Assembly: GCA_013153515.1 (NCBI GenBank)
Contig: JAADEI010000081.1
Location: forward strand, 1 to 54,091
Direction of reading: 5' to 3'
Length of the DNA: 54,091 nucleotides
Origin: Chlorobiota bacterium
Lineage (GTDB): Bacteria; Bacteroidota; Bacteroidia; JAADEI01
Part shown: positions 15,205 to 40,067 of the stretch, piece by piece
How positions within the stretch are numbered: the stretch's first letter is position 1
Layout: every line of letters starts with the position of its first letter
The notes under the pieces: model-generated
Told to the model about the DNA's origin: nothing
Databases searched by the model: none
What the model saw: the letters and a program-made list of their open reading frames with translations, nothing else
Translations under genes and position numbers: made by a program

Positions 15205-15780
15205 ATGGTTAATGGACTTAAATTGATGTTATCATTCTTTATAGTAATTCCTCTTTTGTCTTTAATGCTCCCCTTCCAAAAATTCAATGTTTCCTCTTCC
15301 CGTGGAATGGTTACTCTACACTGGGAAGGATTAGAACATCTTTCTCCCAAAAGAATAATTTTACTACGCAAGAAAAAGGGAAGTGGCAAATTCAAGGAAA
15401 CTTTTTCTGCCGATGCCTCAGTGGCTTCAACATACACATTCTCTGAAACCCTTGAATCGGGAACATATGTGTATAAACTGGTTGTGATTACAGAAAAAGG
15501 CAAAAAGAAAACTGTTGGGAAACATATTGTTAACATTGAAGAGACAGGAACAGCCCTTGTCAAATGGTCTGTTTCAGGAAACACTGTTCTTGTATTCTTT
15601 GTGGAACCATCTTCCGGAACCTACACAATCAAGGACGAGTCAGGAAACATAGTAATCAGACAACCATTTGACAATAAACTATTCTTAGAACTGGTATTCC
15701 CTGAAAAGAAGGGGGAATTTTCAATAACCATAGATATTGATGGCGGCCAATCTTCCACTTTTAGCGTCTATATCAACTAA
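15205..15780 (+). CDS. Exported hypothetical protein, two beta-sandwich (Fn3/Ig-like) domains
   Basis: N-terminal hydrophobic segment; VTLHW...YTF.E....GTYVYKL pattern; convergent with ung. Confidence 0.6.
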   Translation: MVNGLKLMLSFFIVIPLLSLMLPFQKFNVSSSRGMVTLHWEGLEHLSPKRIILLRKKKGSGKFKETFSADASVASTYTFSETLESGTYVYKLVVITEKGKKKTVGKHIVNIEETGTALVKWSVSGNTVLVFFVEPSSGTYTIKDESGNIVIRQPFDNKLFLELVFPEKKGEFSITIDIDGGQSSTFSVYIN

Positions 15781-16538
15781 GGAATTCGCCAGTCTATTGG
15801 ATCTTTACCAATTGATTCCAGGTAGTGATTTGCTTTTGAAAAATGCCTACATCCAAAAAATCCATATTTAGCGGAATAAGGCGAAGGATGAGCAGCCTTT
15901 AAAATTAAATGTTTGCGAGAATCAATGAGTCTTTCTTTTTCCTGTGCAAACTTTCCCCATAGCATAAACACAACTCCCTCCTTTAGCTCGCTTATTTTCC
16001 TAATAGTTGCATCAGTAAAGATTTCCCACCCTATTCCTCTGTGACTGCCGGGTTGTCCAGCCCTAACGGTCAGGATAGCATTGAGCAGGAACACTCCTCG
16101 CTTAGCCCAAGGCGTCAGATTGCCCGTTTTAGGAATGGGAATTCCAAGGTCATCATGTAGTTCTTTATAAATGTTTTGCAATGAAGGGGGAATGGGAACA
16201 TCATCTGGAACAGAGAAGCAAAGTCCCATTGCTTGACGGGGTCCGTGATATGGGTCCTGTCCTAAAATAACCACCTTAACTTGGTCAAAAGGCGTTTGGT
16301 TATAAGCATTGAAGATCAAAGGACCCGGCGGATATATAGTGTATCCTTTCTTCTTTTCCTCAATCAGGAATTGCTTTATGCGGGCAAAATAAGGCTTTTC
16401 AAATTCTTCTTTGAGGACCTCTTTCCATGATGGATGAATCTTTGGATCAACTTTAACTTTGCTTCCTTCATCTTGGTTTCCTGAAGTGGGTCCTTCCGGT
16501 TTCTTACTCAGGAAGTCAAATAAGGTTGGTTGCTTCAC
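15777..16538 (-). CDS. ung: Uracil-DNA glycosylase family 1 with N-terminal extension
   Basis: GQDPYH, PPSLQNI, LLNAILTV, FMLWG, HPSPYS. GTG start; no ATG/GTG/TTG lies between it and the catalytic domain. Confidence 0.96.
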   Translation of the reverse strand: MKQPTLFDFLSKKPEGPTSGNQDEGSKVKVDPKIHPSWKEVLKEEFEKPYFARIKQFLIEEKKKGYTIYPPGPLIFNAYNQTPFDQVKVVILGQDPYHGPRQAMGLCFSVPDDVPIPPSLQNIYKELHDDLGIPIPKTGNLTPWAKRGVFLLNAILTVRAGQPGSHRGIGWEIFTDATIRKISELKEGVVFMLWGKFAQEKERLIDSRKHLILKAAHPSPYSAKYGFFGCRHFSKANHYLESIGKDPIDWRIP

Positions 16539-16571: not shown

Positions 16572-17477
16572 TTACTTAACAAATAGCCCCTTCTTTAGCT
16601 CAAAGTCACCATATCCACCAATGTGTCCATCAATATAGACTTCAACTTGATATTTGCCGGGCAAGAATTCTTGTTTTTCCGTTTCTGGCCAGACGACACA
16701 GAGGTTTTTGTCTTCTCCAGTGTAGTCAAAAGTGATTTTTGTTGTATATTGAAGTTCTGCATTCATATCCAAGTCTTTGAATCTTCCCGAACCAAGGCTT
16801 TCGTCATAGAAAATTTGTTGAGCGGGACTAATTATTCTGACATAAGCGGTTTTTGTTCCGGGTTGTACGATTGGATGTTTGAGGACATCAAAACAAACCT
16901 GAATTTCTTTTGCTTTTTTGTAATTGTAAGTTTTTATCTTCTGACCTGCTTTTTCTTTAAAGCCCCATCCTTGGATGTTTCCCACTCTTAGCATCTGGCT
17001 TTTCTGAATCTTCTCTTCCAGTTGTTGCCTTCGTTGTTGTTCCTGTTCAAGATTTTGCTTCAATTGGACATTTTCTTGTGTCAACACTTCATTTGCCTTG
17101 GCAAGTGAGTCTATCGTAGCAAGCAATTTTTCACGTTCTGCTTTGATTTCGTTATATTTCTTTTTCAAAGAGAAGTAGCTACCCTTCCATCTTTTAATTT
17201 CGTTAAGCAATGAATCTAATTGTCTCTGTTTGGCTTCAATGAGGGCATTTAGCTCTTCATTTTTGCCTTTATAGCTTTCCAGTTCTTGTTTTAAAGCAGT
17301 CAATTCGCTTTCCAGTTGAGCTTTCAACTCCATTGTTTTGGTTAACTCTTCCTGTGTCTTTTGATGTTCTTTCTTAACCTTCATATTATTATAGTAAAGC
17401 ACGCTACTTAATCCGATAAACAGAAGCAAGAGAATTATCAGGACTACCCTCCCCTTGTTGCCTTTTCCCTCAGCCAT
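16572..17477 (-). CDS. Membrane-anchored coiled-coil protein with C-terminal beta domain (conserved hypothetical)
   Basis: TM helix at residues 10-27, about 130 aa of heptad pattern, then a beta-rich domain (VCFDV, LPGKYQVEVY); own -7 promoter. Confidence 0.7.
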   Translation of the reverse strand: MAEGKGNKGRVVLIILLLLFIGLSSVLYYNNMKVKKEHQKTQEELTKTMELKAQLESELTALKQELESYKGKNEELNALIEAKQRQLDSLLNEIKRWKGSYFSLKKKYNEIKAEREKLLATIDSLAKANEVLTQENVQLKQNLEQEQQRRQQLEEKIQKSQMLRVGNIQGWGFKEKAGQKIKTYNYKKAKEIQVCFDVLKHPIVQPGTKTAYVRIISPAQQIFYDESLGSGRFKDLDMNAELQYTTKITFDYTGEDKNLCVVWPETEKQEFLPGKYQVEVYIDGHIGGYGDFELKKGLFVK

Positions 17478-17521: not shown

Positions 17522-18370
17522 TTACCATTTTTGACGTTGTTGCCACTTCCATCTTAGGAAAATGGCTACCCCATTCAGCAAGAAAACCAATCCTAAAAGG
17601 ACGATTATTGCAGCGGCGGCGGTCACTATGAACCCATGTTGTGGTCTAGAGACCCAATTAAATATTTGCACAGGCAGGGCAGTGAAGTCGTCAAAGGGTC
17701 CCTTAGGCAAGAAAGCAATAAACCCAGCAGCACCAATGACAAGAATTGGGGCGGTCTCTCCCACTGCTCGGGACAGGGCAAGGATGACGCCAGTGGCAAT
17801 GCCGGGACCGGCAGCCGGCAGCACCTGATGCCAAACTGTTTGCCAGCGTGTTGCTCCCAAAGCCAGTGCTGCCTCCCTGATAGTATTTGGAACAGCCCGT
17901 AGTGCTTCCCTAGCAGCGACTATGACAACAGGCAGGATAAGTAAGGCTAGTGTCGCCGCTCCACTAATCAGGGTTGGTCCCCAACCAAACCATCTAACAA
18001 AGAATTGCAATCCAAGAAGACCGTAAATTACTGACGGAACACCAGAAAGGTTATAAATCGTGAATTCTATTATCGTTGCCCATTTGCCCGGTTTCATAAA
18101 CTCCTCAAGGAATATGGCGGCAGAAACACCTATTGGAACAGTAATAATTAAGGTCAAGACAAAAAGCCAGAACGTTCCCAATAATGCGGGTAAGATGCCT
18201 GCCTTCTCAGGGAATCTGGATGGATAGCCCAACAAGAAATCAAGGTTCAGACGTTCCAAGCCAAGTTTTAGAGTAACACCAATGAACAATGCCAGGATAA
18301 AAAGGCTAACAACCGTTACTGTCCATCCCATCATCCCAAAAAGCCTATCTATTATTCTTGCCTTTTTCAT
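17522..18370 (-). CDS. pstA: Phosphate ABC transporter permease PstA
   Basis: PEKAGILPALLGT, AIFLEEF, LSGVPSVIYGLLG, EALRAVP, EAALALGATRWQ, RAVGETAP. Confidence 0.95.
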   Translation of the reverse strand: MKKARIIDRLFGMMGWTVTVVSLFILALFIGVTLKLGLERLNLDFLLGYPSRFPEKAGILPALLGTFWLFVLTLIITVPIGVSAAIFLEEFMKPGKWATIIEFTIYNLSGVPSVIYGLLGLQFFVRWFGWGPTLISGAATLALLILPVVIVAAREALRAVPNTIREAALALGATRWQTVWHQVLPAAGPGIATGVILALSRAVGETAPILVIGAAGFIAFLPKGPFDDFTALPVQIFNWVSRPQHGFIVTAAAAIIVLLGLVFLLNGVAIFLRWKWQQRQKW

Positions 18371-19263
18371 CGCTTAATCATTGCCATTTTTCTTCTCACA
18401 TAGAAGCTCAGGGAAGTGGCTATGGATGTTAAAATGAACAGCACGAGAGCGGCTGCAAACACAGTGCGATATTCCAGTGAATCATGTGGGACGTCTCCCA
18501 TAGTAACCTGAACGATATAAGCAGTGATTGTTTCTACTGGTTGGCGGGGATCGAAAGTGAGGATAGGGAATTGACCAGCAGCTATAGTAACGATCATTGT
18601 TTCTCCGAATGCTCTGGCGATAGCAAGCATTATAGCGGCAACAATACCATAACTGGCAGCAGGGATTAGAACTTTGAAAGCCGTTTGGAATCTGGTTGCT
18701 CCAAGTCCATAGGCAGCTTCCCGTAGTGACCTCGGAACGCTTTTAATAGCATCATCAGTTAAACTAGCGATCATAGGAAGGATCATCATTCCCATAACTA
18801 AACCTGCGGATAAAGCGTTAAAGGATTGCAGGTCAGGGATTATTTTTTGTAATGCAGGCGTAACTATCAACAGGGCGAAATATCCATACACTACTGTTGG
18901 GACCAATGCCAACAACTCAATGATTGGTTTCACTACGTTTCTCACTCGGGAAGAAACATATTCATTTAAGAAGACGGCTATGGTTATGCCTGCCGGAATG
19001 GCTACAGCCAATGCTATAACAGAGGTTAGCAAAGTTCCGACCAATAATGGTAAAATGCCATAATGTTTTTGTGTAAATAAGGGGGTCCATTGAGTGTCGG
19101 TTAAAAACTCAATTATTGACACTTCTTTAAAGAAGGGGATCGCTTCGCTGAAGATGATATATATAATCGAAAATGTAACTATGACAGAAATGCTTGTTGC
19201 TAAAAACAGTATAAAGACTATGATTTTTTCAATAATCCTGTTTAATCGTTGTCTTCCTCCCAC
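18367..19263 (-). CDS. pstC: Phosphate ABC transporter permease PstC
   Basis: FLTDTQWTP, YGILPLLVGT, IELLALVPTVVYG, REAAYGLGATR, ARAFGETMIV; GTG start. Confidence 0.95.
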   Translation of the reverse strand: MGGRQRLNRIIEKIIVFILFLATSISVIVTFSIIYIIFSEAIPFFKEVSIIEFLTDTQWTPLFTQKHYGILPLLVGTLLTSVIALAVAIPAGITIAVFLNEYVSSRVRNVVKPIIELLALVPTVVYGYFALLIVTPALQKIIPDLQSFNALSAGLVMGMMILPMIASLTDDAIKSVPRSLREAAYGLGATRFQTAFKVLIPAASYGIVAAIMLAIARAFGETMIVTIAAGQFPILTFDPRQPVETITAYIVQVTMGDVPHDSLEYRTVFAAALVLFILTSIATSLSFYVRRKMAMIKR

Positions 19264-19281: not shown

Positions 19282-19332
19282 CAAACATAAGACGTTTTAG
19301 TTTTTTGATCGGCTTCGATTTCCCTACCTTTG
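19282..19332. promoter_or_regulatory. Divergent promoter pair: TATGTTTG (minus, 19282-19289, pstCA) and TACCTTTG (plus, 19325-19332, EEP-SBP-rgy)
   Basis: Two exact TAnnTTTG matches facing outward in the 75-nt intergenic gap. Confidence 0.7.
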
Positions 19333-19338: not shown

Positions 19339-20538
19339 ATGAAAATTCTGGAATCTTTAAGGTTATTCATCTTGACCCTCATCTGTTCAGGGGAATTGCT
19401 TTTTGCTCAAAGTACCATAACTATAATGCAATATAACCTTTTGCGTTATGGGGCATCACCGATCGTGGAAAAAAACCAAGTTTGCTCTGCCATAATCAAC
19501 TTTGTTAATCCGGACATTTTATGCATAAACGAAGTGTTGCCGACCTATGCAGATTCCTTAGAACTTGTGTTGAAAAGCCTTGACAGTTCTTGGACTCTGG
19601 CTCCTTGGTCTAATGTCTCAGGGGGAACAGTTGTTAATGTTCTGCTATACAGAAAAGACAGGGTTACCTTCGTCAGACAACGAACAGTAGAGACTCTTGT
19701 CAGGGATATTCCAGTATATTGGTTATTGGTCTCCGATAGCATTCCATTAGTGATTGCCGTTGCCCACTTGAAAGCAGGATCTAATTCAACCAGTGAGCAA
19801 CAACGCAGATGGATGGTTGAAGCCCTTATTGATAGCCTAACCAACTGGAATGTGGATAGATGGATCCTCGTGGGCGACCTGAATTTCTATTCTTCCGAAG
19901 ACACTTCATACAAACTGTTAATAAACCATCCAGACCCTCGCTTTAGATTGGTTGATCCTTTCCCTTCTGGGCAATGGCACAATAATGCCCTATTTGCTTC
20001 ATACCACACGCAATCCACCCGGGATACGTTGTTGTCTGATGGCGGGGCAACGGGGGGTATGGACGACCGATTTGATTTCATCTTGCCATCGGTTAGATAC
20101 TTTGAACCGCCCTATCAATGGGACACTTTCTATGTGTTTGCCCAAGACGGAAATCACTTCAACAAGTCCATCCTTGATTCTCCACCTTTACCTGTTCCAG
20201 AAACCATCGCAACTGCACTATACTTCTGCTCTGACCATTTACCTGTTTTAGCGACTCTTTCTTTACCAGATAAACCTGTTCAGGATACTGTAATATCCAC
20301 GTCGGAACCAAATGATTTACACAACTGCCAAATTATCAGTAACACCAGCCAAATCACAATTCCTCACTGTTCGCAAATCATTGCAATAACCACCATTGAG
20401 GGGAAACAAATCTTAATTAACAGTCCCATTGCTCGTTTGGCACTTAATTACACCAACAGATTAATGATTGTCAGTTATGAACAACCGCATCATGTCTCAC
20501 AAAACCACATTAAACACGTTAAATTGATTATAGAGTAA
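19339..20538 (+). CDS. Secreted endonuclease/exonuclease/phosphatase (EEP) family protein with T9SS-CTD-like tail
   Basis: Signal peptide ending FAQ; QYNLL, INEV, AHLKA, VGDLN, DRFDFI, SDHLPV; about 80-aa beta tail ending KLIIE. Confidence 0.85.
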   Translation: MKILESLRLFILTLICSGELLFAQSTITIMQYNLLRYGASPIVEKNQVCSAIINFVNPDILCINEVLPTYADSLELVLKSLDSSWTLAPWSNVSGGTVVNVLLYRKDRVTFVRQRTVETLVRDIPVYWLLVSDSIPLVIAVAHLKAGSNSTSEQQRRWMVEALIDSLTNWNVDRWILVGDLNFYSSEDTSYKLLINHPDPRFRLVDPFPSGQWHNNALFASYHTQSTRDTLLSDGGATGGMDDRFDFILPSVRYFEPPYQWDTFYVFAQDGNHFNKSILDSPPLPVPETIATALYFCSDHLPVLATLSLPDKPVQDTVISTSEPNDLHNCQIISNTSQITIPHCSQIIAITTIEGKQILINSPIARLALNYTNRLMIVSYEQPHHVSQNHIKHVKLIIE

Positions 20539-20547: not shown

Positions 20548-22188
20548 GTGATAAGCATGAGGCGGAAGGATGACTGGATTGGTCAAATGCTAAACAAATG
20601 GGTTATATTACATTTTGGGGTTTTAGCCTCATTTATCTCAGGATGCTCGGACGACAACTCCCGAACAGATGGAAACTTCATAAGAATCAACATTCCTACT
20701 GAAGTACACACTATTGATCCGGGGTTTGCTACCACCCAAGCCAAAATGTGGGTTGTTTCTCAGATATATGAAACCCTCGTTTCCGTTGACTCAAACATGA
20801 ACCTTGTTCCTGAATTAGCAACCAGATGGGAAATCCTTGACAGTGGGAAACGATATAGGTTCTACTTAAGGCAAGGCGTTCGGTTCCACAATAGCGAAGG
20901 GGGGTTGACTGCCCATGACGTAGCAGCATCATTCTATCGGCTCATGACTCCTGAAGTGGCGGCTCCCGGGGCTTGGATATTCAACGACAGAGTCAGGAAG
21001 GATTCTCCTTTCGTTGTGATAAATGATTCCGTAATAGACATTTATCTTGAAAAGCCTTTCGCTCCATTCCTCTACATGCTCACAATGCCCTATGCAAGCA
21101 TCATCTCCCACAAAACTCTTTCAACTCACTATAAAGACCTGCACCGATATGCCGATGGGACAGGGCCCTTTCAGTTAAAAACATGGCAAGAAGAAGCATT
21201 GATACTCATCCAAAATCCTAATTACTGGAAGAGGGACAGTAATGGCAATCCATTGCCCTATATTGATGGCGTTATGTTTTCTTTTATAACCGATCCACAA
21301 GTTGAATTGCATATGTTTCTCCAGAACAATCTTGATTTTATCACCGCAGGTTCTCCCTCAGTCCTTAACAAGATAATGGATAAAAATGGCAGGATTTACA
21401 AAGACATTCTGGCAATTGCCAATCCCATCAAGCATAATTTTCTTAATACTGAATATCTCGGCTTCCTGCTTGACTCAAATGCTCTTGACCCTAATCATCA
21501 TATTCTTTTGAATCCACTTGTGAGAAAAGCCCTTTCACTTGCAATCGACCGAACACAATTGATTAACACAAGTAAATATGGCTTGGGCAGTGCCATAACT
21601 CCCGGCTTTGTCCATCCAGGCATGTGGAACTCTCCTGAAACAATCCCGTCATTTGATCCAATGCTTGCCGCCAAACTCCTTGCCAAAGCCGGCTACCCGG
21701 GCGGAAAAGGATTTCCAGAACTGACAATCCATACTCCACCCTCATATTTAGACTATATGATAATTGTCCAGAAACAATGGGAAGACCATCTGGGCATAAA
21801 GGCAAACATAGAAGTGATGCAACCAGCAACATTAAGAGAGATGATGGTTAAAGGCAGACTCCCTATATTCAGGGGGTCTTGGATAGCCGACTACCCAGAC
21901 CCTGAAACATTCTTAGTTGTTTTTTATAGCCGTATGCCTGCTCCACCCAACTACACACGATTTAAAAACGATTTATATGATAGTCTCTATAACCAAGCAT
22001 TACAAACCTTTGACGAATCCAAAAGATGGAAGTTGTATAAGAAAATGGACAGTTTAATAATTGAACATTCTCCTGTTATCGTATTATTCCATGATCAGGC
22101 TCTGAGGCTACTGTCCAAAAGGGTCAAAGGCTTCAAAATAAACGATATGGGAATGTTTAATCTTGAGTATGTTCGCATTAGCAAATAA
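20548..22188 (+). CDS. ABC transporter substrate-binding lipoprotein, family 5 (OppA/DppA-like)
   Basis: Lipobox ISGC (likely start 20587); IYETLV, PELATRW, YRFYLRQGVRFH, GTGPF, RGSWIADYPDPETFL. Confidence 0.9.
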   Translation: MISMRRKDDWIGQMLNKWVILHFGVLASFISGCSDDNSRTDGNFIRINIPTEVHTIDPGFATTQAKMWVVSQIYETLVSVDSNMNLVPELATRWEILDSGKRYRFYLRQGVRFHNSEGGLTAHDVAASFYRLMTPEVAAPGAWIFNDRVRKDSPFVVINDSVIDIYLEKPFAPFLYMLTMPYASIISHKTLSTHYKDLHRYADGTGPFQLKTWQEEALILIQNPNYWKRDSNGNPLPYIDGVMFSFITDPQVELHMFLQNNLDFITAGSPSVLNKIMDKNGRIYKDILAIANPIKHNFLNTEYLGFLLDSNALDPNHHILLNPLVRKALSLAIDRTQLINTSKYGLGSAITPGFVHPGMWNSPETIPSFDPMLAAKLLAKAGYPGGKGFPELTIHTPPSYLDYMIIVQKQWEDHLGIKANIEVMQPATLREMMVKGRLPIFRGSWIADYPDPETFLVVFYSRMPAPPNYTRFKNDLYDSLYNQALQTFDESKRWKLYKKMDSLIIEHSPVIVLFHDQALRLLSKRVKGFKINDMGMFNLEYVRISK

Positions 22189-22197: not shown

Positions 22198-25100
22198 ATG
22201 AATAAAGCAGATAAAGCACCTTTGATTAGTGTATATAAGAAACTATGTCCTGTTTGTGGGGAAGAGATAGACAACGATAGGCTCTGGTTGGGGTTGCCTT
22301 GTCGGAAATGTGTTCCAGACCCTGCTCCACTTAATGTCAGGCTCAATAGAGGCTTGTTTAAGAGGTTTTATAAAACTCAACAACTAACCACCGAATTCTC
22401 CAAATTTTTTAAGAAAGCCACGGGGTTTGATATCGCCCGTTTGCAAGTGTTATGGACAAAAAGATTTTTCTTGGGGGAATCCTTCGCTATAATGTCTCCT
22501 CCGGGACTCGGCAAGACAACGTGGGGATTGACCCTCAGCCTATTTATCGAAGGGAAAGTATTAATTCTTGTGCCGACCAGATTGCTTGGCGAACAAGTAT
22601 TAAACAGGCTTTCTGAATATGCATCAAAAACAAATTCACGAAAAAGAATTTTGTTTTACAAAAGTTCCCAAAAGATCAAGAAGCAATATGAAAATGGCGA
22701 ATATGATATATTGATTGGCACAACCAGATTCTTTTATTTGCATTTGTCCGAACTGAAAAAAGTGCCTTTCTCTTTCATCTTCATTGACGATGTTGACTCT
22801 TTCCTGAAGCAGCCACGCAGCGTGGAAAGACTAATGAATTTTCTCAACATCCCTTATAGCCTTGTTCAGAAAGCAATGGAACCGAACTTGCCACCGGAAG
22901 ATTTAAATCGGCTCTATGAACAAGCCCAACGATTCATAAACAAACAACTAATCATATCTTCTGCCACCTTAAAGCCTCGTCCCGCTCAAATAAGGCTTTT
23001 CAGACGATTGTTGGGGTTTGATATTCAAAAAAGCATAACGACCCTGAGGCAAATAACCGATGCAAAGAAGGGGCTTAATTCTTTGGAAGAGATAATGAAA
23101 AGGGCAGTTGAGATAATAAAAGAAGTTGGTAGTGGGGGACTGGTCTTCCTCTCTCCAATGCTTGGAAGCAAACATCTGGACTCTGTATTGGAACACCTAA
23201 GGAATAATGGCATAAACGCCATTTCTTATACGGAACATAGCACAGCGGAATTGATTAAGATAATGCAGTCTGGGGAATTTGATGTTGCCGTGGGGATCGC
23301 CCATGCTATGAATCCACTTGTCAGGGGAATAGACCTTCCCTCCGTGTTGAAATATGCTATATTTCTTGAACCTCCTGTTTTTATGTTTCCATTGAAGCAG
23401 GAACCTGTTCCATCCAGACTGTATGTCCTGCTAATAAACATTGTAAATGCCCTTCCGGAAGACTTGCGAACAACTGCTTTCTCTTGGATTCAATACCTGA
23501 GGGACAAACGCTATATTTCCGCCAAGGCGATAGAGGGCAATCCGACGTTAAAATCTAAACTGGAACAGATCGCTTCCACCCTCCAACAATGGCTCAATGA
23601 CCCGGGAATTCAAAGAAAATTAAATGAGTCGGACGATGTTTTCATAAAATTCATTGACGGACAGTGGTATATCATCATTGGCGACGCAACAAGTTATATC
23701 CAAGCGTCTGGACGAACCAGTCGCCTCACTCCTCACGGCTTGACGGAAGGGCTATCAATAGTCCTTTATTCAGAGCCCAAAGCAATGAGAAGCCTTGAAA
23801 AACGATTAAACATATTTTTTCCTTCTGCCCAAATTCAATTTAAAAATCTGGATGAACTGAACTTACAAGAAATTAAAAAAAGGCTTATTGAATCCCGACA
23901 GGAAACCGTTGAACGCAATAGACCATCTTTCTCCTCAACCCTTGTGATTGTTGAATCTCCCACCAAGGCAAAGACCCTTGCTTCATTCATAGGGACTCCA
24001 CAGATGCGTAAGACAGATGGCGTCATTGCTTATGAAGTGCCGGGGGCAGACAGAATGTGGATATTCACCGCTTCACTCGGACACATAACAGACCTCATCA
24101 CTGATGAAGGGTATTGGGGCGTTAGGATTGGGGGCGATGAAGGGTTCCTGCCTGTCTATAATACTATCAAGCATTGCGACACGGAAAAAGGACGGATTCA
24201 ATTCACTGATGATGACCCGCCCTCTCCCTGCTCTAAAAGACCCATATCAGACAAAAAAGAAATTATTGATGGACTGAGAAAATTAGCCTTTCAAGTTGAT
24301 GAAGTTATTATTGCAACCGACCCAGATACCGAAGGCGAAAAAATCGGATTTGATAACTGGCATGCTATAAGACCTTACCAACGTAATGTTTTGAGAAGTG
24401 AGTTTCATGAGATAACGCCCGCAGGCTTCAAGAAAGCAATTCAACAAGCCAGAATAGTTAATTTCAATTGGGTTAAGGCACAGATTGCCCGTCGGATAGC
24501 AGACAGATGGGTCGGATTCTATTTCTCACAATATCTATGGAAAAGATTTAGGAACAAGTTTTTGTCAGCGGGAAGGGTTCAAACTCCTGTCTTAAAATGG
24601 GTCATTGATCGGACGTTAAAGGCACGCACCAAAGTGCCCGTAGTAACCTTTAAAGTTCAAAATGTTCAATTTGAACTACCAGCCCAAAACAGGCAGGACG
24701 CCAATCAGAAAATTAATTTGCTCCGGAAAGCAAACATAACTCTAAGCGACGAAAAAACTACGCAAAAAAATCCCGCTCCCCCTTTCACCACAGACAAAAT
24801 TCTGCAGGAAGCCAACACCCTACTGAGAATAGATGTCAACACCACTATGAAACTACTACAAGAACTCTTTGAAAATGGCTTGATAACATATCACAGAACA
24901 GATAGTACACACGTGTCAGACACGGGGATTTATGCCGTTGCAAAGCCTTTCATCGTGGAAACAGCAGGCGAAGAATACTTTTATCCCAGGCACTGGGGAC
25001 AGGAAGGAACCCATGAAGCGATCAGACCAACCAGACCACTCACACCAGATGACTTAACAATACAAATTTCATCGGGGATATACACCTTCTCCGACAATCA

Positions 25101-25719
25101 AAAAGCCCTTCATCTGTATGATTTAATTTTCTTTTGGTTCATGGCTTCACAAGCCTCTCCAGCGAAAGTGAAGCAAGCCACCTTATCCATAATGTCGCCT
25201 GATGGCAACCTGCTAATCCAAAAACTCGTGATAACCCAGATTGAGTTTGATGGATACTTAAAATTCGCTCACAAATTTGTACGACTTGAACAAATTGACC
25301 CTTCACAACCTCTAAAACTCTCTGACATAAAAATAACCCACAAGCCTTTGGAACCTCCCTTCACACAAGGCGAACTAATCAAAACAATGAAAGAAAGGAA
25401 ACTGGGACGTCCCTCCACATACGCCAAGATAGTGGAAACCCTTCTTAACAGGAAATATGTCAGCGAACACCGTGGACGCCTATACGCCACTAAACTGGGA
25501 ATGCAAGTCTATAAATGTTTGCTTCAGGACTGTCCAATTCAACCCGAAAAACGACGCCTCCTTTCAGAAGACTTCACACGGGAATTGGAAGAACTAATGG
25601 ATAGGATAAGCGAAGGGGAAGAAAGACTAAAAAACGTGCTTAATAGATACTTCACTATATTGGAATTGAGACCTGTGCATAAACCCTTTCAACACAGTCA
25701 TAAACCAGACTCCTATTAA
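22198..25719 (+). CDS. rgy: Reverse gyrase
   Basis: N-terminal CPVC-x17-CRKC Zn finger. SF2 helicase motifs PPGLGKTT, DDVD, SAT, YIQASGRTSR. Type IA topoisomerase motifs IVESPTKA, ATDPDTEGEKI, SAGRVQTP, LITYHRTDS (catalytic Tyr), GRPSTYA. 1173 aa. Confidence 0.97.
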   Translation: MNKADKAPLISVYKKLCPVCGEEIDNDRLWLGLPCRKCVPDPAPLNVRLNRGLFKRFYKTQQLTTEFSKFFKKATGFDIARLQVLWTKRFFLGESFAIMSPPGLGKTTWGLTLSLFIEGKVLILVPTRLLGEQVLNRLSEYASKTNSRKRILFYKSSQKIKKQYENGEYDILIGTTRFFYLHLSELKKVPFSFIFIDDVDSFLKQPRSVERLMNFLNIPYSLVQKAMEPNLPPEDLNRLYEQAQRFINKQLIISSATLKPRPAQIRLFRRLLGFDIQKSITTLRQITDAKKGLNSLEEIMKRAVEIIKEVGSGGLVFLSPMLGSKHLDSVLEHLRNNGINAISYTEHSTAELIKIMQSGEFDVAVGIAHAMNPLVRGIDLPSVLKYAIFLEPPVFMFPLKQEPVPSRLYVLLINIVNALPEDLRTTAFSWIQYLRDKRYISAKAIEGNPTLKSKLEQIASTLQQWLNDPGIQRKLNESDDVFIKFIDGQWYIIIGDATSYIQASGRTSRLTPHGLTEGLSIVLYSEPKAMRSLEKRLNIFFPSAQIQFKNLDELNLQEIKKRLIESRQETVERNRPSFSSTLVIVESPTKAKTLASFIGTPQMRKTDGVIAYEVPGADRMWIFTASLGHITDLITDEGYWGVRIGGDEGFLPVYNTIKHCDTEKGRIQFTDDDPPSPCSKRPISDKKEIIDGLRKLAFQVDEVIIATDPDTEGEKIGFDNWHAIRPYQRNVLRSEFHEITPAGFKKAIQQARIVNFNWVKAQIARRIADRWVGFYFSQYLWKRFRNKFLSAGRVQTPVLKWVIDRTLKARTKVPVVTFKVQNVQFELPAQNRQDANQKINLLRKANITLSDEKTTQKNPAPPFTTDKILQEANTLLRIDVNTTMKLLQELFENGLITYHRTDSTHVSDTGIYAVAKPFIVETAGEEYFYPRHWGQEGTHEAIRPTRPLTPDDLTIQISSGIYTFSDNQKALHLYDLIFFWFMASQASPAKVKQATLSIMSPDGNLLIQKLVITQIEFDGYLKFAHKFVRLEQIDPSQPLKLSDIKITHKPLEPPFTQGELIKTMKERKLGRPSTYAKIVETLLNRKYVSEHRGRLYATKLGMQVYKCLLQDCPIQPEKRRLLSEDFTRELEELMDRISEGEERLKNVLNRYFTILELRPVHKPFQHSHKPDSY

Positions 25720-25799
25720 ATTTAATTTGACCTATGAATAAACCCGAATCACATACTAAAACCTTTTAGATAGACAACGGAACAAAAGAGTCAACGGGC

Positions 25800-27137
25800 T
25801 TAATCGGGTTTATTGTGTATGTATGGAATCGTGTTCTTTCTGGGATTGGGCACCTCCCTCTCGTCCTCTGCATCACCACCAACACCAAAAAATAATCCCG
25901 GAATGCTTCTCTGCTGCCTTAAATAGGAAGGTTCCTCTTTTCTGAGTTTCCTCCTGTCTTGTGGGCTAACGCTTTCCTGCCCCCTTGATCTTTGCTTTTC
26001 AACTTGATTTTCAGGCTCATATATTGGCTCTTTCTTAGGAATATAGTGTGCATCTGCATAACCCGAACTAATTTCCACATCCTTTGGCTCAACTAAACTA
26101 GTTGGTTTCTGATTCCACAATACAGGTTTCTCTTCTTCCTCCTCTATCTCCCGCTTATCAACAACTTCAATAATCAATAGCATAGCACTTTTCTCAGGCA
26201 AGTGAGATGTTGAACCCAAGGCAACAAGGAACTCAGCATCGGGCGACTCCTTCTCTAATCTCTTCTTCAATGTGTGAATGAGACTTCCAGTAATGTCAAC
26301 GGAAGGATGCCAGAGGAACGACACGAACAAAGCAGACGCATTCTTCAAAGTCAAAATATGTTTCAAATATGGATGGGAACTGATTTGCTCAAACATCTCA
26401 TCAAGGTCAGGCTTGTCTATTTTCGTTTGAATGCTTATTCCCACATGTGCCTCCTTACCCTGTCCAAACAACATTCCCAACTCTCCCGGCTTAATGGAAA
26501 AATATAATCCCGGATTGCATGAATAAATAATACCCTGAATAATGTTTTTAATAAAATTATTCCTGTCTTTTAAAATATCTTCAAATCGCCTATCTGCAAC
26601 CGCTATATTGTCATTATCCACAACTATTACCGCACTGACGTGTTTCTTAATCTCTTCAATGGCTTCATCCGCTATCTGTCTCACCCGTTTGCCTGCAGGA
26701 CTAAAAGGATAGAGTAATATGGCAATTGACGACACATTTGTCTTCCCCTTTAACAATTCCTCTGCAATGACGGGCAATGCACCACTGCCAGTGCCCTCCC
26801 CAACTCCAGCGATAAAAAAGACCATTTCAGTATCATCACCCACTAACTTCTTCAAGTCTTCTATGGATTCCTTAGCGGCAGCCCTCCCTTTCTCAGGGTC
26901 TCTCATACAGCCCCTCCCCTGAGTTACACTCTCTCCCAAAAGAACTTTATGTATGTTCGCCACCCCATCCAATGCGTCAGCGTCCGTGTCGCAAGAAATA
27001 GCCATCACGGATTGAGGCATGTCTTTGAAAATGTAGTTAACCACTTGGATTCCAGCAGTTCCAACCCCTATCAATTTAATGCGTCCCTTTCCCCAAGACG
27101 CCTTCTCCCTAACAACAGGAACTATTTCGGTAGTCAT
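25800..27137 (-). CDS. ftsZ: Cell division protein FtsZ, highly divergent
   Basis: Last gene of dcw after ftsA. IKLIGVG, DTD, PEKGRAAAKES, MVFFIAGVGEGTGSGALPVIAE, DND; Bacteroidota-like tail (EPSYLRQ ... YIHNKPD). Catalytic loops altered. Confidence 0.85.
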   Translation of the reverse strand: MTTEIVPVVREKASWGKGRIKLIGVGTAGIQVVNYIFKDMPQSVMAISCDTDADALDGVANIHKVLLGESVTQGRGCMRDPEKGRAAAKESIEDLKKLVGDDTEMVFFIAGVGEGTGSGALPVIAEELLKGKTNVSSIAILLYPFSPAGKRVRQIADEAIEEIKKHVSAVIVVDNDNIAVADRRFEDILKDRNNFIKNIIQGIIYSCNPGLYFSIKPGELGMLFGQGKEAHVGISIQTKIDKPDLDEMFEQISSHPYLKHILTLKNASALFVSFLWHPSVDITGSLIHTLKKRLEKESPDAEFLVALGSTSHLPEKSAMLLIIEVVDKREIEEEEEKPVLWNQKPTSLVEPKDVEISSGYADAHYIPKKEPIYEPENQVEKQRSRGQESVSPQDRRKLRKEEPSYLRQQRSIPGLFFGVGGDAEDEREVPNPRKNTIPYIHNKPD

Positions 27138-28644: not shown

Positions 28645-29370
28645 CTATTTACCTGCCACAAGTTGGTTTTCGTATCTCAAATCAATCGTTTTGTAAGTCT
28701 GCCACAATCCATGTTTTTTGATGAATTTGAAGAATTTGCGTAATTTATTTAGTTTTCCATCCAAGCGGTCATCAACCTCCCCGATTATTATTTTTTGCCT
28801 GTCAACCCTGCTTATTAAGACCCATCCGTGCGAGGAAGAGTAAGTTATGTGCCCGATTATTGATGTTAGAAACTTGTTTTTATTTATATGTTTAATTAAA
28901 GTTTTTAAGTCGTTTATTTTCTCACTGATTGTATAGGCATCTGTGTATAAGAGAACAACTGGGACATATACAGGCTTTGAAACCTCTGTAATAAGGAAAA
29001 TGGTTCCGTCCTCCGCCATGTAATAGCTCTCTCCGCCGAAAGTGATGATTCTGGCTATTGGCACGTGTTCCTCAATCCTTACAACAAGGGTTGAATCGTG
29101 GGATATGAACAAGTGGGCTTCTCTGATTGGCTCCAATTCTTCCAGTTTGCTTTCTATCTCTTCCAAACGTTGTGGCTTGATAGAATCAGCGTTTCCAAGT
29201 ATCTGGAAAATAACTGTTGAATCCACAAACCGCAAATCCCCCTCCACTCTCAGTTTGTTAAAAGTTGGTTTCCACGAGAAGGCACTGGCAAGCAAAACAA
29301 TAAGTGTCGCAACTAAGAAAACCAAATATGCCCAATCCTTCACCATTTTCTTAAACTCCTGCACTCTCAT
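28645..29370 (-). CDS. ftsQ: Cell division protein FtsQ/DivIB
   Basis: One TM, POTRA-like IESKLEELEPIREAHL, VRIEEHVPIARI, IDLRYENQLV; position between murC/B and ftsA. Confidence 0.85.
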   Translation of the reverse strand: MRVQEFKKMVKDWAYLVFLVATLIVLLASAFSWKPTFNKLRVEGDLRFVDSTVIFQILGNADSIKPQRLEEIESKLEELEPIREAHLFISHDSTLVVRIEEHVPIARIITFGGESYYMAEDGTIFLITEVSKPVYVPVVLLYTDAYTISEKINDLKTLIKHINKNKFLTSIIGHITYSSSHGWVLISRVDRQKIIIGEVDDRLDGKLNKLRKFFKFIKKHGLWQTYKTIDLRYENQLVAGK

Positions 29371-31684
29371 CGGGAACAAATTTTCCTATTTTCTGAACCT
29401 CCATCTGTAACAAAACACCACGTCTGTTAAACACTTCATTGCGAACATGCTCAATTAACCGAAGCATATCAAGTGCAGTAGCATTATTAGCGTTAATCAG
29501 GAAATTAGCGTGTTTAGGGCTAACCATTACCCCTCCCACAGAAAACCCCTTTAAGCCCAATTCATCAATCAATTTGCCGGCAGGCAATTCAATAGACGGG
29601 TTTTTAAATATGCATCCTGCATTAGGCTTATTAAGCGGTTGCGACGTGTTACGCTTCTTCAACAAGTTCCTTCTCCTTTCCAATGCCTCCTCTATGTCAT
29701 CAATTGGTTTCAATTTCAGGACAGCCTCCAGAATGATTGAGTCATAAAGGTCTGTATAGCGATAGGCATATCTAACCTGTCCCTTTCTTAGTCGTTGGAT
29801 TCTACCATCCCTGAACACCTCAACCTCCTCTATGAAATCAAATATCTCAGCCCCATAAGCCCCGGCATTCATCAGGACAGCACCCCCCACCGTCCCGGGA
29901 ATCCCAGCCAATGGTTCCAATCCCCCCAGCCCGGCTTTAATCATCTTCAAGACGAAGGCGGGCAGGTCAACGCCGGCACCCACCACAACACGCCCATCAC
30001 CCAAAATCTCATAGTAATTCAATGCTTTGCCTACATTCATAACTATGGCATCCATACCATAGTCCCCCACCAATAAGTTGGAACCACGTCCCAGAACGAA
30101 ATATGGCAGGTCTTCCTTGGCAATAAATTCAAGCAAGTTCAATAATTCTTGTTTGTCCTGTGGATTGACGAAGAACAGTGCTTCCCCACCAATTCGCAGA
30201 GTTGTATGTTTTGATAATGGCTCCCTTTCCTTGACATTTTGGGTTATTTCATAGAGTTTTTGTCGTGTGGTCTCTTGTTTCAATTTCCTAACGCCCTCTT
30301 TCATAAACCACCTGTCCAACAGCACTTCCTTAAAGCGGTCTGCCAGTTTGTTTATGTCTCCGGCACCGAGAATAACCAGCACCCTTGGTCTCCTCCGTCG
30401 CACAAACTCAACAAGGGAATCAAAGGGAATGTAGAACTTATCTGGATGTTCCACATGCTTGAGAATCAAATAAGGGTCAACGCCGGCAATGGGCTTTTCC
30501 CGTGCAGGATAGATGTCTGTAACGACCACGGCATCCGCCTCACTAAGCGACTTCCCGAATTCCTCAGCGAAGGCTTGCGTCCGACTATATAAATGCGGAT
30601 GGAATATCACAGTTATTTTTTCGTCTGGGTATAGGGTTCTGACCGTTTTAAGGGCTTCCTTCACCTCAGTGGGATGATGGGCATAGTCATCAATGAATGC
30701 CCTGAAATAATCAGCATAATAAATCTGGAACCTTCTTTCAATGCCCTGAAATTCCACTAACTCATTGCCCGATAAGGTCAATCCCTGAGCATAAAGGGTT
30801 GTCACAGCACCCGTTATGTTTGAAGCATTATGTTTTCCTGGCAAAGAAATGGGTTGTTTAAACTCAATGTTTCCATAAGGCAAATCAATAAGAAAGGAAA
30901 ATTCAGGTAATTCAAGTGGTTTTCTGACCATACGGAACGAATGCCCCCGCACATCAGCGTAGTCCTCAATGCCATACGTAATCACTTCAATATCGTCTCT
31001 GTGAATGGAAAGCAAGTTTCTGACTGTGGCATTGATTATTAATTTCCCTCCCGGCTTTATATTCCCCACAAACTGGTTAAAAGCATCTATGAAATCCTCA
31101 AAAGTCGGATAAATATCCGTGTGATCCCATTCTATGTGAGTGATTACTGCCACGGTCGGTTTCAGCAACAGGAAAGACCGGTCATATTCATCTGCTTCCA
31201 CAACAAAAGTCCGGTTGTCTCCTGCAACATAGTTGGAACCATAGTTCAATGGGATTGCTCCAAGGAAAGCCGTCGGTCGCCTCCCCGCTTTATCCATCAA
31301 ATAGGTTATCAACGTGGAAGTCGTTGATTTTCCGTGTGTTCCGGCGACGGCAATCAGGTCTCCTTGGTTAACTATTTGTGCCAGCAGTTCAGCCCGTTTG
31401 ATTAAGGGAATCCCACGGTCTATCACTCCTTTGAGCAATGGGTCTTCAAGGGACAGGGCGGGCGTCCACACAACAAGCCCGGGCATCTCCCGGTCAATCA
31501 GTTCAAGAGCCTCCCGTTCGGAATGCACAATAGTCATTCCTTCTCTGGAAAGCGTTTCGGTCAGTTGGGTTCTTGCCCTGTCATAGCCATAAATAGAGTG
31601 TCCCTGTGAGTTCAGGAAGCGAGCCAAGGCACTCATACCTATCCCGCCAATCCCAGCAAAAAATATCTTTTCAGGCAAGTTCAT
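29351..31684 (-). CDS. murC/murB: MurC-MurB fusion (UDP-MurNAc--L-Ala ligase + UDP-N-acetylenolpyruvoylglucosamine reductase)
   Basis: MurC: GIGGIGMSALA, GTHGKSTT, EADEYDRSFL, DDYAHHPTE. MurB: HTTLRIGG, LGRGSNLL, GIPGTVGGAVLMNAGAYG, QPLNKPNAGCIFKNP, SPKHANFLIN. Single ORF (track start 31708; likely start 31684). Confidence 0.92.
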   Translation of the reverse strand: MNLPEKIFFAGIGGIGMSALARFLNSQGHSIYGYDRARTQLTETLSREGMTIVHSEREALELIDREMPGLVVWTPALSLEDPLLKGVIDRGIPLIKRAELLAQIVNQGDLIAVAGTHGKSTTSTLITYLMDKAGRRPTAFLGAIPLNYGSNYVAGDNRTFVVEADEYDRSFLLLKPTVAVITHIEWDHTDIYPTFEDFIDAFNQFVGNIKPGGKLIINATVRNLLSIHRDDIEVITYGIEDYADVRGHSFRMVRKPLELPEFSFLIDLPYGNIEFKQPISLPGKHNASNITGAVTTLYAQGLTLSGNELVEFQGIERRFQIYYADYFRAFIDDYAHHPTEVKEALKTVRTLYPDEKITVIFHPHLYSRTQAFAEEFGKSLSEADAVVVTDIYPAREKPIAGVDPYLILKHVEHPDKFYIPFDSLVEFVRRRRPRVLVILGAGDINKLADRFKEVLLDRWFMKEGVRKLKQETTRQKLYEITQNVKEREPLSKHTTLRIGGEALFFVNPQDKQELLNLLEFIAKEDLPYFVLGRGSNLLVGDYGMDAIVMNVGKALNYYEILGDGRVVVGAGVDLPAFVLKMIKAGLGGLEPLAGIPGTVGGAVLMNAGAYGAEIFDFIEEVEVFRDGRIQRLRKGQVRYAYRYTDLYDSIILEAVLKLKPIDDIEEALERRRNLLKKRNTSQPLNKPNAGCIFKNPSIELPAGKLIDELGLKGFSVGGVMVSPKHANFLINANNATALDMLRLIEHVRNEVFNRRGVLLQMEVQKIGKFVPDESAGV

Positions 31685-40062: not shown

Positions 40063-40067
40063 CGTGC

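What the first reader, a model, noticed from the sequence alone, without database searches (positions are those of the whole stretch)
22198..25719. Intact reverse gyrase in a Bacteroidota genome
Seen: all helicase and topoisomerase IA motifs, including the catalytic Tyr (codon 24889-24891). The gene is 9 nt after the SBP gene, so it is likely co-transcribed from a Bacteroidota-type promoter at 19325, embedded among Bacteroidota genes. Known: rgy is the hallmark of hyperthermophiles and some thermophiles, spreads by HGT, and is not a typical Bacteroidota gene. Inference: a hot-environment Bacteroidia lineage that acquired rgy and integrated it into a host operon.
Basis: partly seen in the sequence, partly recalled or inferred. 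Interest (0 to 1): 0.7.

Follow-up and report, generated by a model that had tools for sequence, protein, structure and literature searches.

The report
Reverse gyrase in vent-dwelling basal Bacteroidia
The window carries an intact, selectively maintained reverse gyrase (the DNA-overwinding enzyme typical of heat-loving microbes) inside the core chromosome of a little-known Bacteroidota lineage from deep-sea hydrothermal chimneys; it is a new host group for a well-known enzyme rather than a new kind of system.

Summary
ORF 22198-25719 (+, 1173 aa) is a full-length reverse gyrase: TIGR01054 scores 1110 bits against a 471.7 cutoff. All helicase and topo IA motifs are present, and the catalytic Tyr898 is codon 24889-24891.

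It is not an assembly chimera. The SBP->rgy and rgy/ftsZ junctions recur in five independent assemblies.

The host is Bacteroidota, branching at the base of class Bacteroidia. The evidence is a MurE tree (90% bootstrap), conserved TAnnTTTG promoter boxes, and MAG labels.

The only other member of this RG clade (51% identity) is in a Tui Malila vent MAG that GTDB places in Bacteroidia, order SpSt-205. The clade nests among bacterial RGs (Aquificaceae, WOR-3, Thermodesulfobacteriota). It therefore does not share the crenarchaeal origin reported for Ca. Kryptonia.

The acquisition is old:
- GC and codon usage match the host.
- dN/dS is about 0.05.
- Divergence tracks the host genes.
- There are no mobile-element scars.

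Co-transcription with the upstream phosphatase/SBP genes is plausible but only inferred. How thermophilic the host is remains unresolved: the composition index is noisy, and this RG clade has the least thermophile-like composition of the RGs sampled.

Verdict: a new member of a known kind, of moderate interest.

The parts
22198..25719 (+). rgy: reverse gyrase, 1173 aa, N-terminal helicase-like module fused to a C-terminal type IA topoisomerase
   Evidence: ORF. Pfam domains. TIGR01054 at 1110 bits against a 471.7 cutoff. Full-length match to T. maritima RG 4DDT (E 1e-176) and A. fulgidus RG 1GL9 (query residues 12-1151).
22246..22311 (+). N-terminal zinc finger (Cys17, Cys20, Cys35, Cys38)
   Evidence: PF17915 zf_Rg hit. 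Four Cys positions, all invariant in alignment A1. 81 of 84 RGs have 4 Cys in this region.
22504..22518 (+). Helicase motif I / Walker A, GLGKT (residues 103-107)
   Evidence: G103, G105, K106 and T107 invariant.
22786..22797 (+). Helicase motif II, DDVD (residues 197-200)
22960..22968 (+). Helicase motif III, SAT (residues 255-257)
23701..23724 (+). Helicase motif VI, QASGRTSR (residues 502-509)
23953..23955 (+). Toprim catalytic Glu586, within VIVESPTKA
   Evidence: E586 invariant.
24175..24231 (+). Remnant of the second (Toprim-inserted) zinc finger; only Cys660 and Cys678 remain of the four
   Evidence: The same 2-Cys form occurs in the Aquificaceae, WOR-3 and Thermodesulfobacteriales RGs. 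The 4-Cys form occurs in archaeal and other clades.
24319..24339 (+). Toprim DxD motif, DPDTEGE (residues 708-714)
24889..24891 (+). Catalytic tyrosine Tyr898 (codon TAT) within GLITYHRTDS
   Evidence: Y898, H899, R900, T901, D902 and S903 invariant.
20548..22188 (+). Family-5 ABC substrate-binding protein gene (peptide/nickel type); it ends 9 nt before rgy
   Evidence: PF00496 at 243 bits. The junction is conserved in L001 and L084 (9 nt) and in L002 (4-nt overlap).
19339..20538 (+). Endonuclease/exonuclease/phosphatase-family gene, first gene of the putative three-gene transcription unit
   Evidence: PF03372. Same position in L002 and L084.
19304..19332 (+). Bacteroidota-type promoter-like site: TTTG, 21 nt, then TACCTTTG (-7 box at 19325-19332)
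   Evidence: Only match in the window. The -7 box TAC[CT]TTTG is conserved 6-7 nt before the ATG in L084 and L002. It is one of four intergenic TAnnTTTG boxes, all oriented toward a downstream gene.
19282..19289 (-). Divergent -7 box TATGTTTG facing the two ABC permease genes (17522-19263, - strand)
   Evidence: It lies in the block CTGCAAACATA, conserved in three lineages.
25720..25799 (.). 80-nt convergent spacer between the rgy stop and the ftsZ stop, with no convincing terminator
   Evidence: Fold z-score of -0.09. No terminator-like site. In L001, L002 and L182 the two genes overlap by 4 nt instead.
25800..27137 (-). ftsZ, last gene of the host dcw cluster, convergent with rgy
   Evidence: Tubulin domain. 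TIGR00065 at 133.9 bits, below its 295.2 cutoff. The ftsZ/rgy junction is seen in five assemblies.

Best explanation
The gene encodes a functional reverse gyrase. A helicase-like ATPase module drives a type IA topoisomerase, which cleaves one strand through Tyr898 and passes the other strand through the break. The result is ATP-dependent positive supercoiling and protection of DNA against heat.

The gene entered an ancestor of a small group of hydrothermal-vent Bacteroidota from a bacterial thermophile donor. This group branches at the base of class Bacteroidia, in or near GTDB order SpSt-205. The donor's RG was related to those of Aquificaceae, WOR-3 and Thermodesulfobacteriota.

Since then the gene has been inherited vertically in the window's lineage. 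There it sits between a peptide-type ABC transporter locus and the end of the dcw cluster. It is most likely transcribed by read-through from the Bacteroidota-type promoter at 19304-19332, together with the phosphatase-family and SBP genes.

Shown: gene identity, intact motifs, the host's phylum, conserved synteny, purifying selection, and the RG's phylogenetic position.

Inferred: enzymatic activity, co-transcription, the direction and timing of the transfer, and the host's growth temperature.
For: Identity:
- TIGR01054 scores 1110 bits against a 471.7 cutoff.
- The Pfam architecture fits reverse gyrase.
- All catalytic motifs are present and invariant.
- The protein matches both crystallised RGs over its full length.

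Not a chimera: the same gene order and junctions occur in L001, L002/L183, L084 and L182.

Host:
- MurE groups with Bacteroidia at 90% bootstrap, as the basal branch.
- The sister MAGs are labelled Bacteroidetes.
- Conserved and correctly oriented TAnnTTTG boxes are present.

Habitat:
- S141 is a Brothers volcano NW/Upper Caldera Wall chimney, where fluids reach about 320 C.
- T2 is from Tui Malila on the ELSC.

Origin:
- The window clade plus P0005 has 100% bootstrap support. It lies inside a 44-sequence bacterial clade that also has 100% support.
- It shares the 2-Cys Zn2 state of that clade.
- P0005's host is Bacteroidia; SpSt-205; JAADEI01.

Old and maintained:
- GC and GC3 z-scores are about -0.5, and the codon-usage (RSCU) correlation ranks 34 of 38.
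- dN is 0.10-0.16 with saturated dS, so dN/dS is about 0.05. RG identity (78-83%) tracks the host genes.
- There are no tRNAs or flanking repeats.

Operon:
- The gap is 9 nt, or a 4-nt overlap in L002.
- No TAnnTTTG box lies within 600 nt upstream of rgy in four lineages.
- No terminator-like site lies between the SBP gene and rgy.
Against: - No activity or expression data exist.
- The trees are neighbour-joining only. The sister relation to Thermodesulfobacteriota/Ammonifex has only 78% bootstrap support, so the donor is not pinned down.
- The promoter motif count is not significant by itself.
- The -7 box ends 6 nt before the annotated ATG, which implies a nearly leaderless mRNA or a mis-called start.
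- Gene context differs completely in P0005's genome. Single acquisition with vertical descent across both lineages is therefore not demonstrated; transfer between two Bacteroidia lineages fits equally well.
- The thermophily index (about 60 C) is unreliable. The matched control on dcw loci of presumed mesophiles spans 24-70 C.
- The RG itself has a mesophile-like composition.
Confidence: 0.8

Rival explanations
1. Recent horizontal acquisition: rgy, alone or with the SBP gene, is a recently inserted island in an otherwise ordinary Bacteroidota chromosome.
For: RG is known to spread by HGT among vent thermophiles (PMC6878951). The RG clade nests among non-Bacteroidota sequences.
Against: GC, GC3 and codon usage cannot be told apart from the host's. 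The same insertion context occurs in genomes whose housekeeping genes have saturated synonymous divergence. No tRNA, integrase or flanking repeats are present. The nearest non-Bacteroidota RG is only 46% identical.
Confidence: 0.05
2. Assembly or binning artefact: the rgy segment comes from a co-occurring Aquificota or Thermodesulfobacteriota genome and was joined to Bacteroidota DNA.
For: Such thermophiles are abundant in the same samples, for example the S141 Aquificaceae and Thermovibrio MAGs.
Against: Both junctions are reproduced in five independent assemblies from different samples and projects. Composition is uniform. The protein is at most 46% identical to any RG from those phyla.
Confidence: 0.01
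3. Ancestral Bacteroidota gene: rgy was present in the phylum's ancestor and lost almost everywhere.
For: Two divergent Bacteroidia lineages share one RG clade. Ca. Kryptonia, another FCB lineage, also has RG (PMC4737851).
Against: The Kryptonia RG is reported to be of crenarchaeal (Thermoproteales) origin, whereas this clade is nested in bacterial RGs. No other Bacteroidota appear among the closest 120 homologs or the 80 labelled genome hits. The clade-specific metagenome scan found no further members.
Confidence: 0.04
4. Same enzyme, different physiological role. The organism is a moderate thermophile or thermotolerant organism, and the RG acts mainly as a heat-stress DNA protectant during temperature swings in chimney walls, rather than as a constitutive supercoiling enzyme of a hyperthermophile.
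For: Nautilia profundicola (optimum about 45 C) has rgy that is induced more than 100-fold at 65 C (PMC2628731). The window-clade RGs have the lowest IVYWREL (0.40-0.41) and charged-minus-polar (CvP) values (0.03-0.04) of the RGs compared. The window proteome's CvP is only 0.046.
Against: Composition indices on 38 proteins are noisy. The apparent operon with transport genes and the lack of an own promoter argue against dedicated heat induction.
Confidence: 0.3

Closest known systems
Reverse gyrase of Thermotoga maritima (PDB 4DDT-4DDX) and Archaeoglobus fulgidus (PDB 1GKU/1GL9)
   Same: Full-length collinear match (E 1e-176 and 6e-175). Same order of Zn finger, helicase-like module with latch region, Toprim and topo IA domains. 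Identical catalytic motifs.
   Different: The window protein has only 2 of the 4 Cys of the T. maritima second zinc finger. Its composition is markedly less charged and more polar.
Reverse gyrases of Aquificaceae (e.g. Aquifex aeolicus VF5), WOR-3 and Thermodesulfobacteriota
   Same: These are the nearest named relatives, at 42-46% identity over 97% of the length. They fall in the same 100%-supported NJ clade and share the 2-Cys Zn2 state.
   Different: The window clade sits on a long separate branch together with P0005. Its hosts are Bacteroidia rather than these phyla.
Reverse gyrase of Candidatus Kryptonia (FCB superphylum; a class of Bacteroidota in GTDB, by my recollection)
   Same: It is a precedent for RG in a relative of Bacteroidetes living in geothermal habitats, with acquisition attributed to HGT (PMC4737851; PMC6878951).
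   Different: The Kryptonia RG is reported as derived from Thermoproteales (archaeal), whereas the window's RG nests among bacterial RGs. The two are therefore independent acquisitions. I did not have a Kryptonia sequence in my tree, so this rests on the papers' statement plus my tree.
Reverse gyrase of Nautilia profundicola and other vent Campylobacterota
   Same: RG in a non-hyperthermophilic vent bacterium, proposed as an adaptation to fluctuating temperature (PMC2628731).
   Different: A different phylum and a different RG lineage. No expression data exist for the window's gene.

Membership tests
Reverse gyrase (TIGR01054 / EC 5.6.2.2-type RG) | Single polypeptide fusing an N-terminal SF2 helicase-like module to a C-terminal type IA topoisomerase | tested here: met
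   Pfam DEAD (92-259), Toprim (581-739) and Topoisom_bac (755-1148) in one 1173-aa ORF. Collinear with the 4DDT and 1GL9 chains.
Reverse gyrase (TIGR01054 / EC 5.6.2.2-type RG) | Score above the curated equivalog cutoff over the full model | tested here: met
   1110.3 bits against 471.7, model positions 4-1167 of 1172. The topA_bact model scores only 311.9 against its 456.4 cutoff.
Reverse gyrase (TIGR01054 / EC 5.6.2.2-type RG) | Helicase ATPase motifs I, II, III and VI | tested here: met
   GLGKT, DDVD, SAT and QASGRTSR are present and invariant in A1.
Reverse gyrase (TIGR01054 / EC 5.6.2.2-type RG) | Topo IA catalytic tyrosine and Toprim acidic residues (Glu, DxD) | tested here: met
   Y898 in TYHRTDS, E586, and D708/D710.
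Reverse gyrase (TIGR01054 / EC 5.6.2.2-type RG) | N-terminal RG-type zinc finger | tested here: met
   PF17915 at 40.4 bits against a 25.5 cutoff. Four Cys present.
Reverse gyrase (TIGR01054 / EC 5.6.2.2-type RG) | Second, Toprim-inserted 4-Cys zinc finger. This is a variable feature of the family, not a defining one. | tested here: inconclusive
   Only C660 and C678 are present. Among 84 RGs, 22 have 0 Cys here, 35 have 2, 3 have 3 and 24 have 4. The 2-Cys form is therefore normal for this part of the tree.
Reverse gyrase (TIGR01054 / EC 5.6.2.2-type RG) | Latch insertion in the second RecA-like domain | tested here: met
   Residues of about 395-495 align with the consensus of 12 other RGs. 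They correspond to the segment between the two phmmer domains on 4DDT. No 3-D model was made.
Reverse gyrase (TIGR01054 / EC 5.6.2.2-type RG) | ATP-dependent positive supercoiling of DNA | not testable with these tools
   Needs a purified-protein assay.
Reverse gyrase (TIGR01054 / EC 5.6.2.2-type RG) | Host is a thermophile or hyperthermophile (the empirical association of the family) | tested here: inconclusive
   The samples are high-temperature chimneys. The IVYWREL index gives about 60 C, but the matched control is noisy.
Phylum Bacteroidota (host assignment) | Housekeeping-gene phylogeny groups with Bacteroidota | tested here: met
   In the MurE NJ tree, the window and its sisters form the basal branch of a clade with Bacteroidales, Flavobacteriales, Cytophagales and Saprospiraceae at 90% bootstrap, outside Chlorobia and Ignavibacteria. 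This is a single gene and an NJ tree only.
Phylum Bacteroidota (host assignment) | Bacteroidota-type promoters with a TAnnTTTG -7 element. That this element defines the phylum's promoters is my own knowledge of sigma-AB promoters. | tested here: met
   Four intergenic boxes against 1.5 expected, all oriented toward downstream genes. Two are conserved across three lineages.
Phylum Bacteroidota (host assignment) | Public taxonomy of the orthologous genomes | tested here: met
   The record titles read 'Bacteroidetes bacterium' for JAJRPU, WFXT and JALWYU. The GTDB string for T2_metabat1_scaf2bin.034 is Bacteroidota; Bacteroidia; SpSt-205; JAADEI01. The GTDB string for the window's own lineage was not found.

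The most novel reading that the evidence does not exclude
The window-clade enzyme is a reverse gyrase adapted to the lowest temperature range yet seen for the family. It would be maintained under strong selection in a moderately thermophilic, or merely thermotolerant, basal Bacteroidia lineage. It would be expressed constitutively as part of a nutrient-uptake operon rather than as a heat-shock gene. If so, RG presence would not be a reliable marker of (hyper)thermophily in genome-based temperature inference. The clade would also offer a natural RG variant active well below 60 C.
Probability: 0.2. Interest if true: 0.6.

Novelty: new member of a known kind. Interest (0 to 1): 0.4.

Why it matters
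Reverse gyrase is used as a presence/absence marker of life at high temperature, including in arguments about the temperature of ancestral organisms (PMC6878951).

Class Bacteroidia is regarded as essentially mesophilic. I found no paper in the searchable library that reports RG in it or describes order SpSt-205.

This finding shows that a basal, vent-restricted Bacteroidia group has kept an RG of bacterial origin under purifying selection for a long time. That has three consequences:
- It adds a host class to the RG distribution.
- It gives a second RG gain within the FCB group that is independent of the Kryptonia gain.
- It supports thermophily, or at least thermotolerance, at the base of Bacteroidia.

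The unusually mesophile-like composition of this RG clade also makes it a useful candidate for biochemical work on the temperature dependence of positive supercoiling.

Tried and rejected
1. Occupied versus empty site test. I searched for intermediate relatives of the adjacent ftsZ. None exist between 64% identity and about 39% partial identity, so the test could not be run.

2. GTDB taxonomy of the window's own lineage. No text supplements are held for PMC7768687. S141_62, WFXT, JAJRPU and Dive100 are absent from the supplements of PMC9793634. Only the taxonomy of P0005's MAG was recovered.

3. Growth-temperature inference from IVYWREL. It gave about 60 C. A matched control on dcw loci of other genomes gave 24-70 C for presumed mesophilic Bacteroidota, so I do not rely on it.

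4. Survey of RG across GTDB species with a profile.

5. Clade-specific scan of JGI metagenomes. Only distant RGs (41% identity or less) were found, with no new clade members.

6. Thermophile-type uracil-DNA glycosylase. The neighbouring UDG is an ordinary family-1 Ung, so it is not a thermophily marker.

7. Sigma-70 promoter and intrinsic terminator scans gave counts equal to the shuffled expectation. The 80-nt rgy/ftsZ spacer does not fold better than shuffles.

8. Flanking direct or inverted repeats as island scars. Only short, chance-level matches were found.

9. Exact look-up of the window's RG in the contig collection. It is not on record.

10. Structure prediction was not run. The sequence-level matches to two crystal structures already settle the fold.


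Full report
**1. The observation**

The window has one ORF at 22198-25719 on the + strand (ATG start, 1173 aa). Pfam finds the reverse-gyrase zinc finger (residues 11-43), a DEAD-type helicase domain (92-259), Toprim (581-739) and the bacterial topoisomerase I core (755-1148). The NCBIfam equivalog model for reverse gyrase, TIGR01054, scores 1110.3 bits against a cutoff of 471.7 and covers model positions 4-1167 of 1172. The plain topoisomerase I model stays below its own cutoff.

- GLGKT at residues 103-107
- DDVD at 197-200
- SAT at 255-257
- QASGRTSR at 502-509
- Toprim Glu586
- DPDTEGE at 708-714
- The catalytic tyrosine Tyr898, encoded by TAT at 24889-24891, exactly the coordinate given

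All of these are invariant columns in an alignment with 12 diverse reverse gyrases. The protein matches both crystallised reverse gyrases end to end: T. maritima 4DDT at E 1e-176, and A. fulgidus 1GL9 at E 6e-175 with query residues 12-1151 aligned.

**2. The surroundings**

On the + strand, upstream of rgy, lie an endonuclease/exonuclease/phosphatase-family gene (19339-20538) and a family-5 ABC substrate-binding protein gene (20548-22188). The latter ends 9 nt before rgy. Two ABC permease genes (17522-19263) are transcribed divergently from them.

Downstream, rgy converges on ftsZ (25800-27137). This is the last gene of a complete division/cell-wall cluster running mraZ, rsmH, ftsI, murE, mraY, murD, ftsW, murG, a murC-murB fusion, ftsQ, ftsA, ftsZ. 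The gene therefore lies in core chromosome. The window contains no tRNA or Rfam RNA. There are no repeats flanking the block beyond chance-level matches, and no integrase-like ORFs appear among the annotated genes.

**3. Not a chimera**

Orthologs of the protein at 78-83% identity exist in other assemblies. Gene order is identical in each of the following:
- WFXT01000177, 'Bacteroidetes bacterium S141_62': symporter through murD, 23.5 kb examined.
- JAJRPU010000065, 'Bacteroidetes bacterium Dive100_bin10.107': SBP, rgy, ftsZ.
- An ENA contig from ERZ27262642: ung through ftsA.
- A contig from BioSample SAMN12239301.
- GCA_054017355.1: the contig ends 122 codons into the 3' end of rgy, which is 86% identical to the window's.

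Both junctions are thus reproduced in five independent assemblies. Base composition is flat across the region.

**4. The host**

The window's MurE is 94% and 80% identical to MurE of the same two 'Bacteroidetes bacterium' MAGs. The next best hits in 185,579 species genomes are only 43-46% identical and belong to Bacteroidales, Saprospiraceae, Cytophagales, Flavobacterium and Myroides.

In a neighbour-joining MurE tree, the window and its sisters form the basal branch of a clade containing those Bacteroidia lineages. That clade has 90% bootstrap support and lies outside Chlorobia and Ignavibacteria.

Promoter grammar agrees. Of 17 TAnnTTTG octamers in the window, four are fully intergenic (1.5 expected), and all four point toward a downstream gene. 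The boxes at 19325 (+) and 19282 (-) sit back to back between the divergent operons. Both are conserved in two other lineages. That TAnnTTTG is the Bacteroidota -7 element is my own knowledge.

The host is therefore a deep-branching member of Bacteroidota, at or near the base of class Bacteroidia. I could not retrieve the GTDB string for its own lineage.

**5. Where the enzyme comes from**

After the four close orthologs, the next homolog is P0005 at 51% identity. Everything else is at most 46% identical and comes from Aquificota, Thermodesulfobacteriota and similar groups.

In a bootstrapped NJ tree of 84 reverse gyrases:
- The window clade plus P0005 is supported at 100%.
- This clade lies inside a 100%-supported bacterial clade made of Aquificaceae, WOR-3, Aminicenantes, Caldipriscus, Thermodesulfobacteriota and Ammonifex/Thermanaeromonas.
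- Its sister relation to the Thermodesulfobacteriota/Ammonifex part has only 78% support.

A shared character fits this placement. The second zinc finger has the 2-Cys form in the window clade and in most of that bacterial clade. Archaeal and other RGs have the 4-Cys form.

P0005 lies on a contig of 'Bacteroidetes bacterium T2_metabat1_scaf2bin.034'. This MAG comes from a Tui Malila deposit on the Eastern Lau Spreading Centre. The source study classifies it as Bacteroidota; Bacteroidia; o__SpSt-205; f__JAADEI01. In that study's tree, SpSt-205 and an unnamed sister order consist of vent MAGs and branch at the base of Bacteroidia. On that contig rgy is flanked by SprB-, peptidase M43- and PKD-domain genes, not by ftsZ or an SBP gene.

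A scan of JGI metagenomes with clade-specific peptides found no further members. The only published precedent I found in a relative of Bacteroidetes is Ca. Kryptonia, whose RG is reported to derive from Thermoproteales (PMC4737851; PMC6878951). The present clade has bacterial affinity, so it represents a separate gain.

**6. Age and selection**

GC (0.421) and GC3 (0.417) of rgy lie within the spread of the other 37 ORFs (z about -0.5). Its codon usage correlates with the rest of the window better than most genes do, ranking 34 of 38.

Against the orthologous loci, rgy has dN of 0.10-0.16 with saturated dS, giving dN/dS of about 0.05. Its amino-acid identity (78% to L002, 82-83% to L084 and L001) sits in the middle of the host genes:
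- Higher than ftsZ, ftsA, ftsQ and the phosphatase-family gene
- Similar to the SBP gene
- Slightly below murD and murCB, and well below the permeases

The gene has therefore co-diverged with the chromosome under purifying selection. Whether the gain predates the split from the P0005 lineage cannot be decided here.

**7. Transcription**

The spacing between the SBP gene and rgy is 9 nt in three lineages and a 4-nt overlap in the fourth. No TAnnTTTG box lies within 600 nt upstream of rgy in any of the four. No terminator-like site separates the genes. Read-through from the promoter at 19304-19332 is therefore the simplest reading.

It remains an inference, for three reasons:
- The full motif occurs once in the window against 2.4 expected by chance.
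- Its -7 box ends only 6 nt before the annotated ATG.
- There are no expression data.

I see no functional link between a peptide-type transporter and reverse gyrase. The different context in P0005's genome suggests the adjacency is historical accident.

**8. Temperature**

The samples are high-temperature deposits. S141 is a chimney from the Brothers volcano NW/Upper Caldera Wall sites, whose fluids reach about 320 C.

The organism's own optimum is not established. The IVYWREL index over 38 ORFs gives about 60 C. The same index on dcw loci of presumably mesophilic Bacteroidota ranges from 24 to 70 C, so I give it little weight.

The window-clade reverse gyrases have IVYWREL of 0.40-0.41 and a charged-minus-polar (CvP) value of 0.03-0.04. 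These are well below the 15 other RGs whose composition I computed (0.44-0.50 and 0.09-0.18), including P0005. With the Nautilia profundicola precedent (optimum near 45 C, rgy induced at 65 C; PMC2628731), a moderately thermophilic or thermotolerant lifestyle is a live possibility.

**9. Verdict**

The corrections are these:
- The gain is ancient and ameliorated.
- The gene may be inherited vertically within a small basal Bacteroidia group.
- The operon and the thermophily are inferences.

This is a known enzyme in a host class where I found no published report of it, so it is a new member of a known kind. Interest is moderate. It extends the distribution of a marker gene, adds an independent gain in the FCB group, and points to an RG variant with unusual composition. 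It does not reveal a new mechanism.

Noticed in passing
window 25800-27137 (-): FtsZ of this lineage is extremely divergent. It scores 133.9 bits on TIGR00065 (cutoff 295.2) and has no FtsZ_C (PF12327) hit. Outside the four sister genomes (64-73% identity), the best database hits are at most 39% identical, most of them over only a third to half of the protein. It evolves faster than the neighbouring reverse gyrase.
   Followed up: partly
window 29351-31708 (-): A single 785-aa ORF fuses MurC (TIGR01082, residues 13-457) and MurB (residues 479-776). The fusion is conserved in L002 (786 aa) and L182 (778 aa).
   Followed up: partly
window 22198-25719, and P0002-P0004 and P0123: The RGs of this clade have the least thermophile-like amino-acid composition of the RGs compared: IVYWREL 0.40-0.41 and CvP 0.03-0.04, against 0.44-0.50 and 0.09-0.18 elsewhere.
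   Followed up: partly
loci L011, L012, L014, L015 (Patescibacteria MurE): In the MurE tree, four Patescibacteria sequences nest inside the Bacteroidia clade next to Blattabacterium. They align only from about residue 79-92 onward. This hints at horizontal transfer of murE or at long-branch attraction.
   Followed up: no
window 16572-17477 (-): A conserved 301-aa coiled-coil protein (weak SMC-like hits; DUF8428/DUF8429 in the precomputed Pfam of its L084 ortholog). It has its own TAACTTTG box at 17494 and is 87-90% identical in the sister genomes, which is more conserved than most neighbours. Its function is unknown.
   Followed up: no
window 47472-49209 and 51033-51856: Two long stretches (1738 and 824 nt) have no accepted gene in my list. 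The first holds only two overlapping ORFs on opposite strands (48339-48866 on the - strand, 48464-49213 on the + strand) with no family hit for the - strand one. Rfam finds nothing there.
   Followed up: no
window 40063-40345: A 283-nt gap lies between ftsI and rsmH. A small ftsL gene would be expected there in a dcw cluster, but no ORF of 150 aa or more is listed.
   Followed up: no
window 15777-16538 (-): An ordinary family-1 uracil-DNA glycosylase (Ung, 346 bits) lies in the same conserved block and is 89-93% identical in the sister genomes. It is not the family-4 type common in thermophiles.
   Followed up: yes
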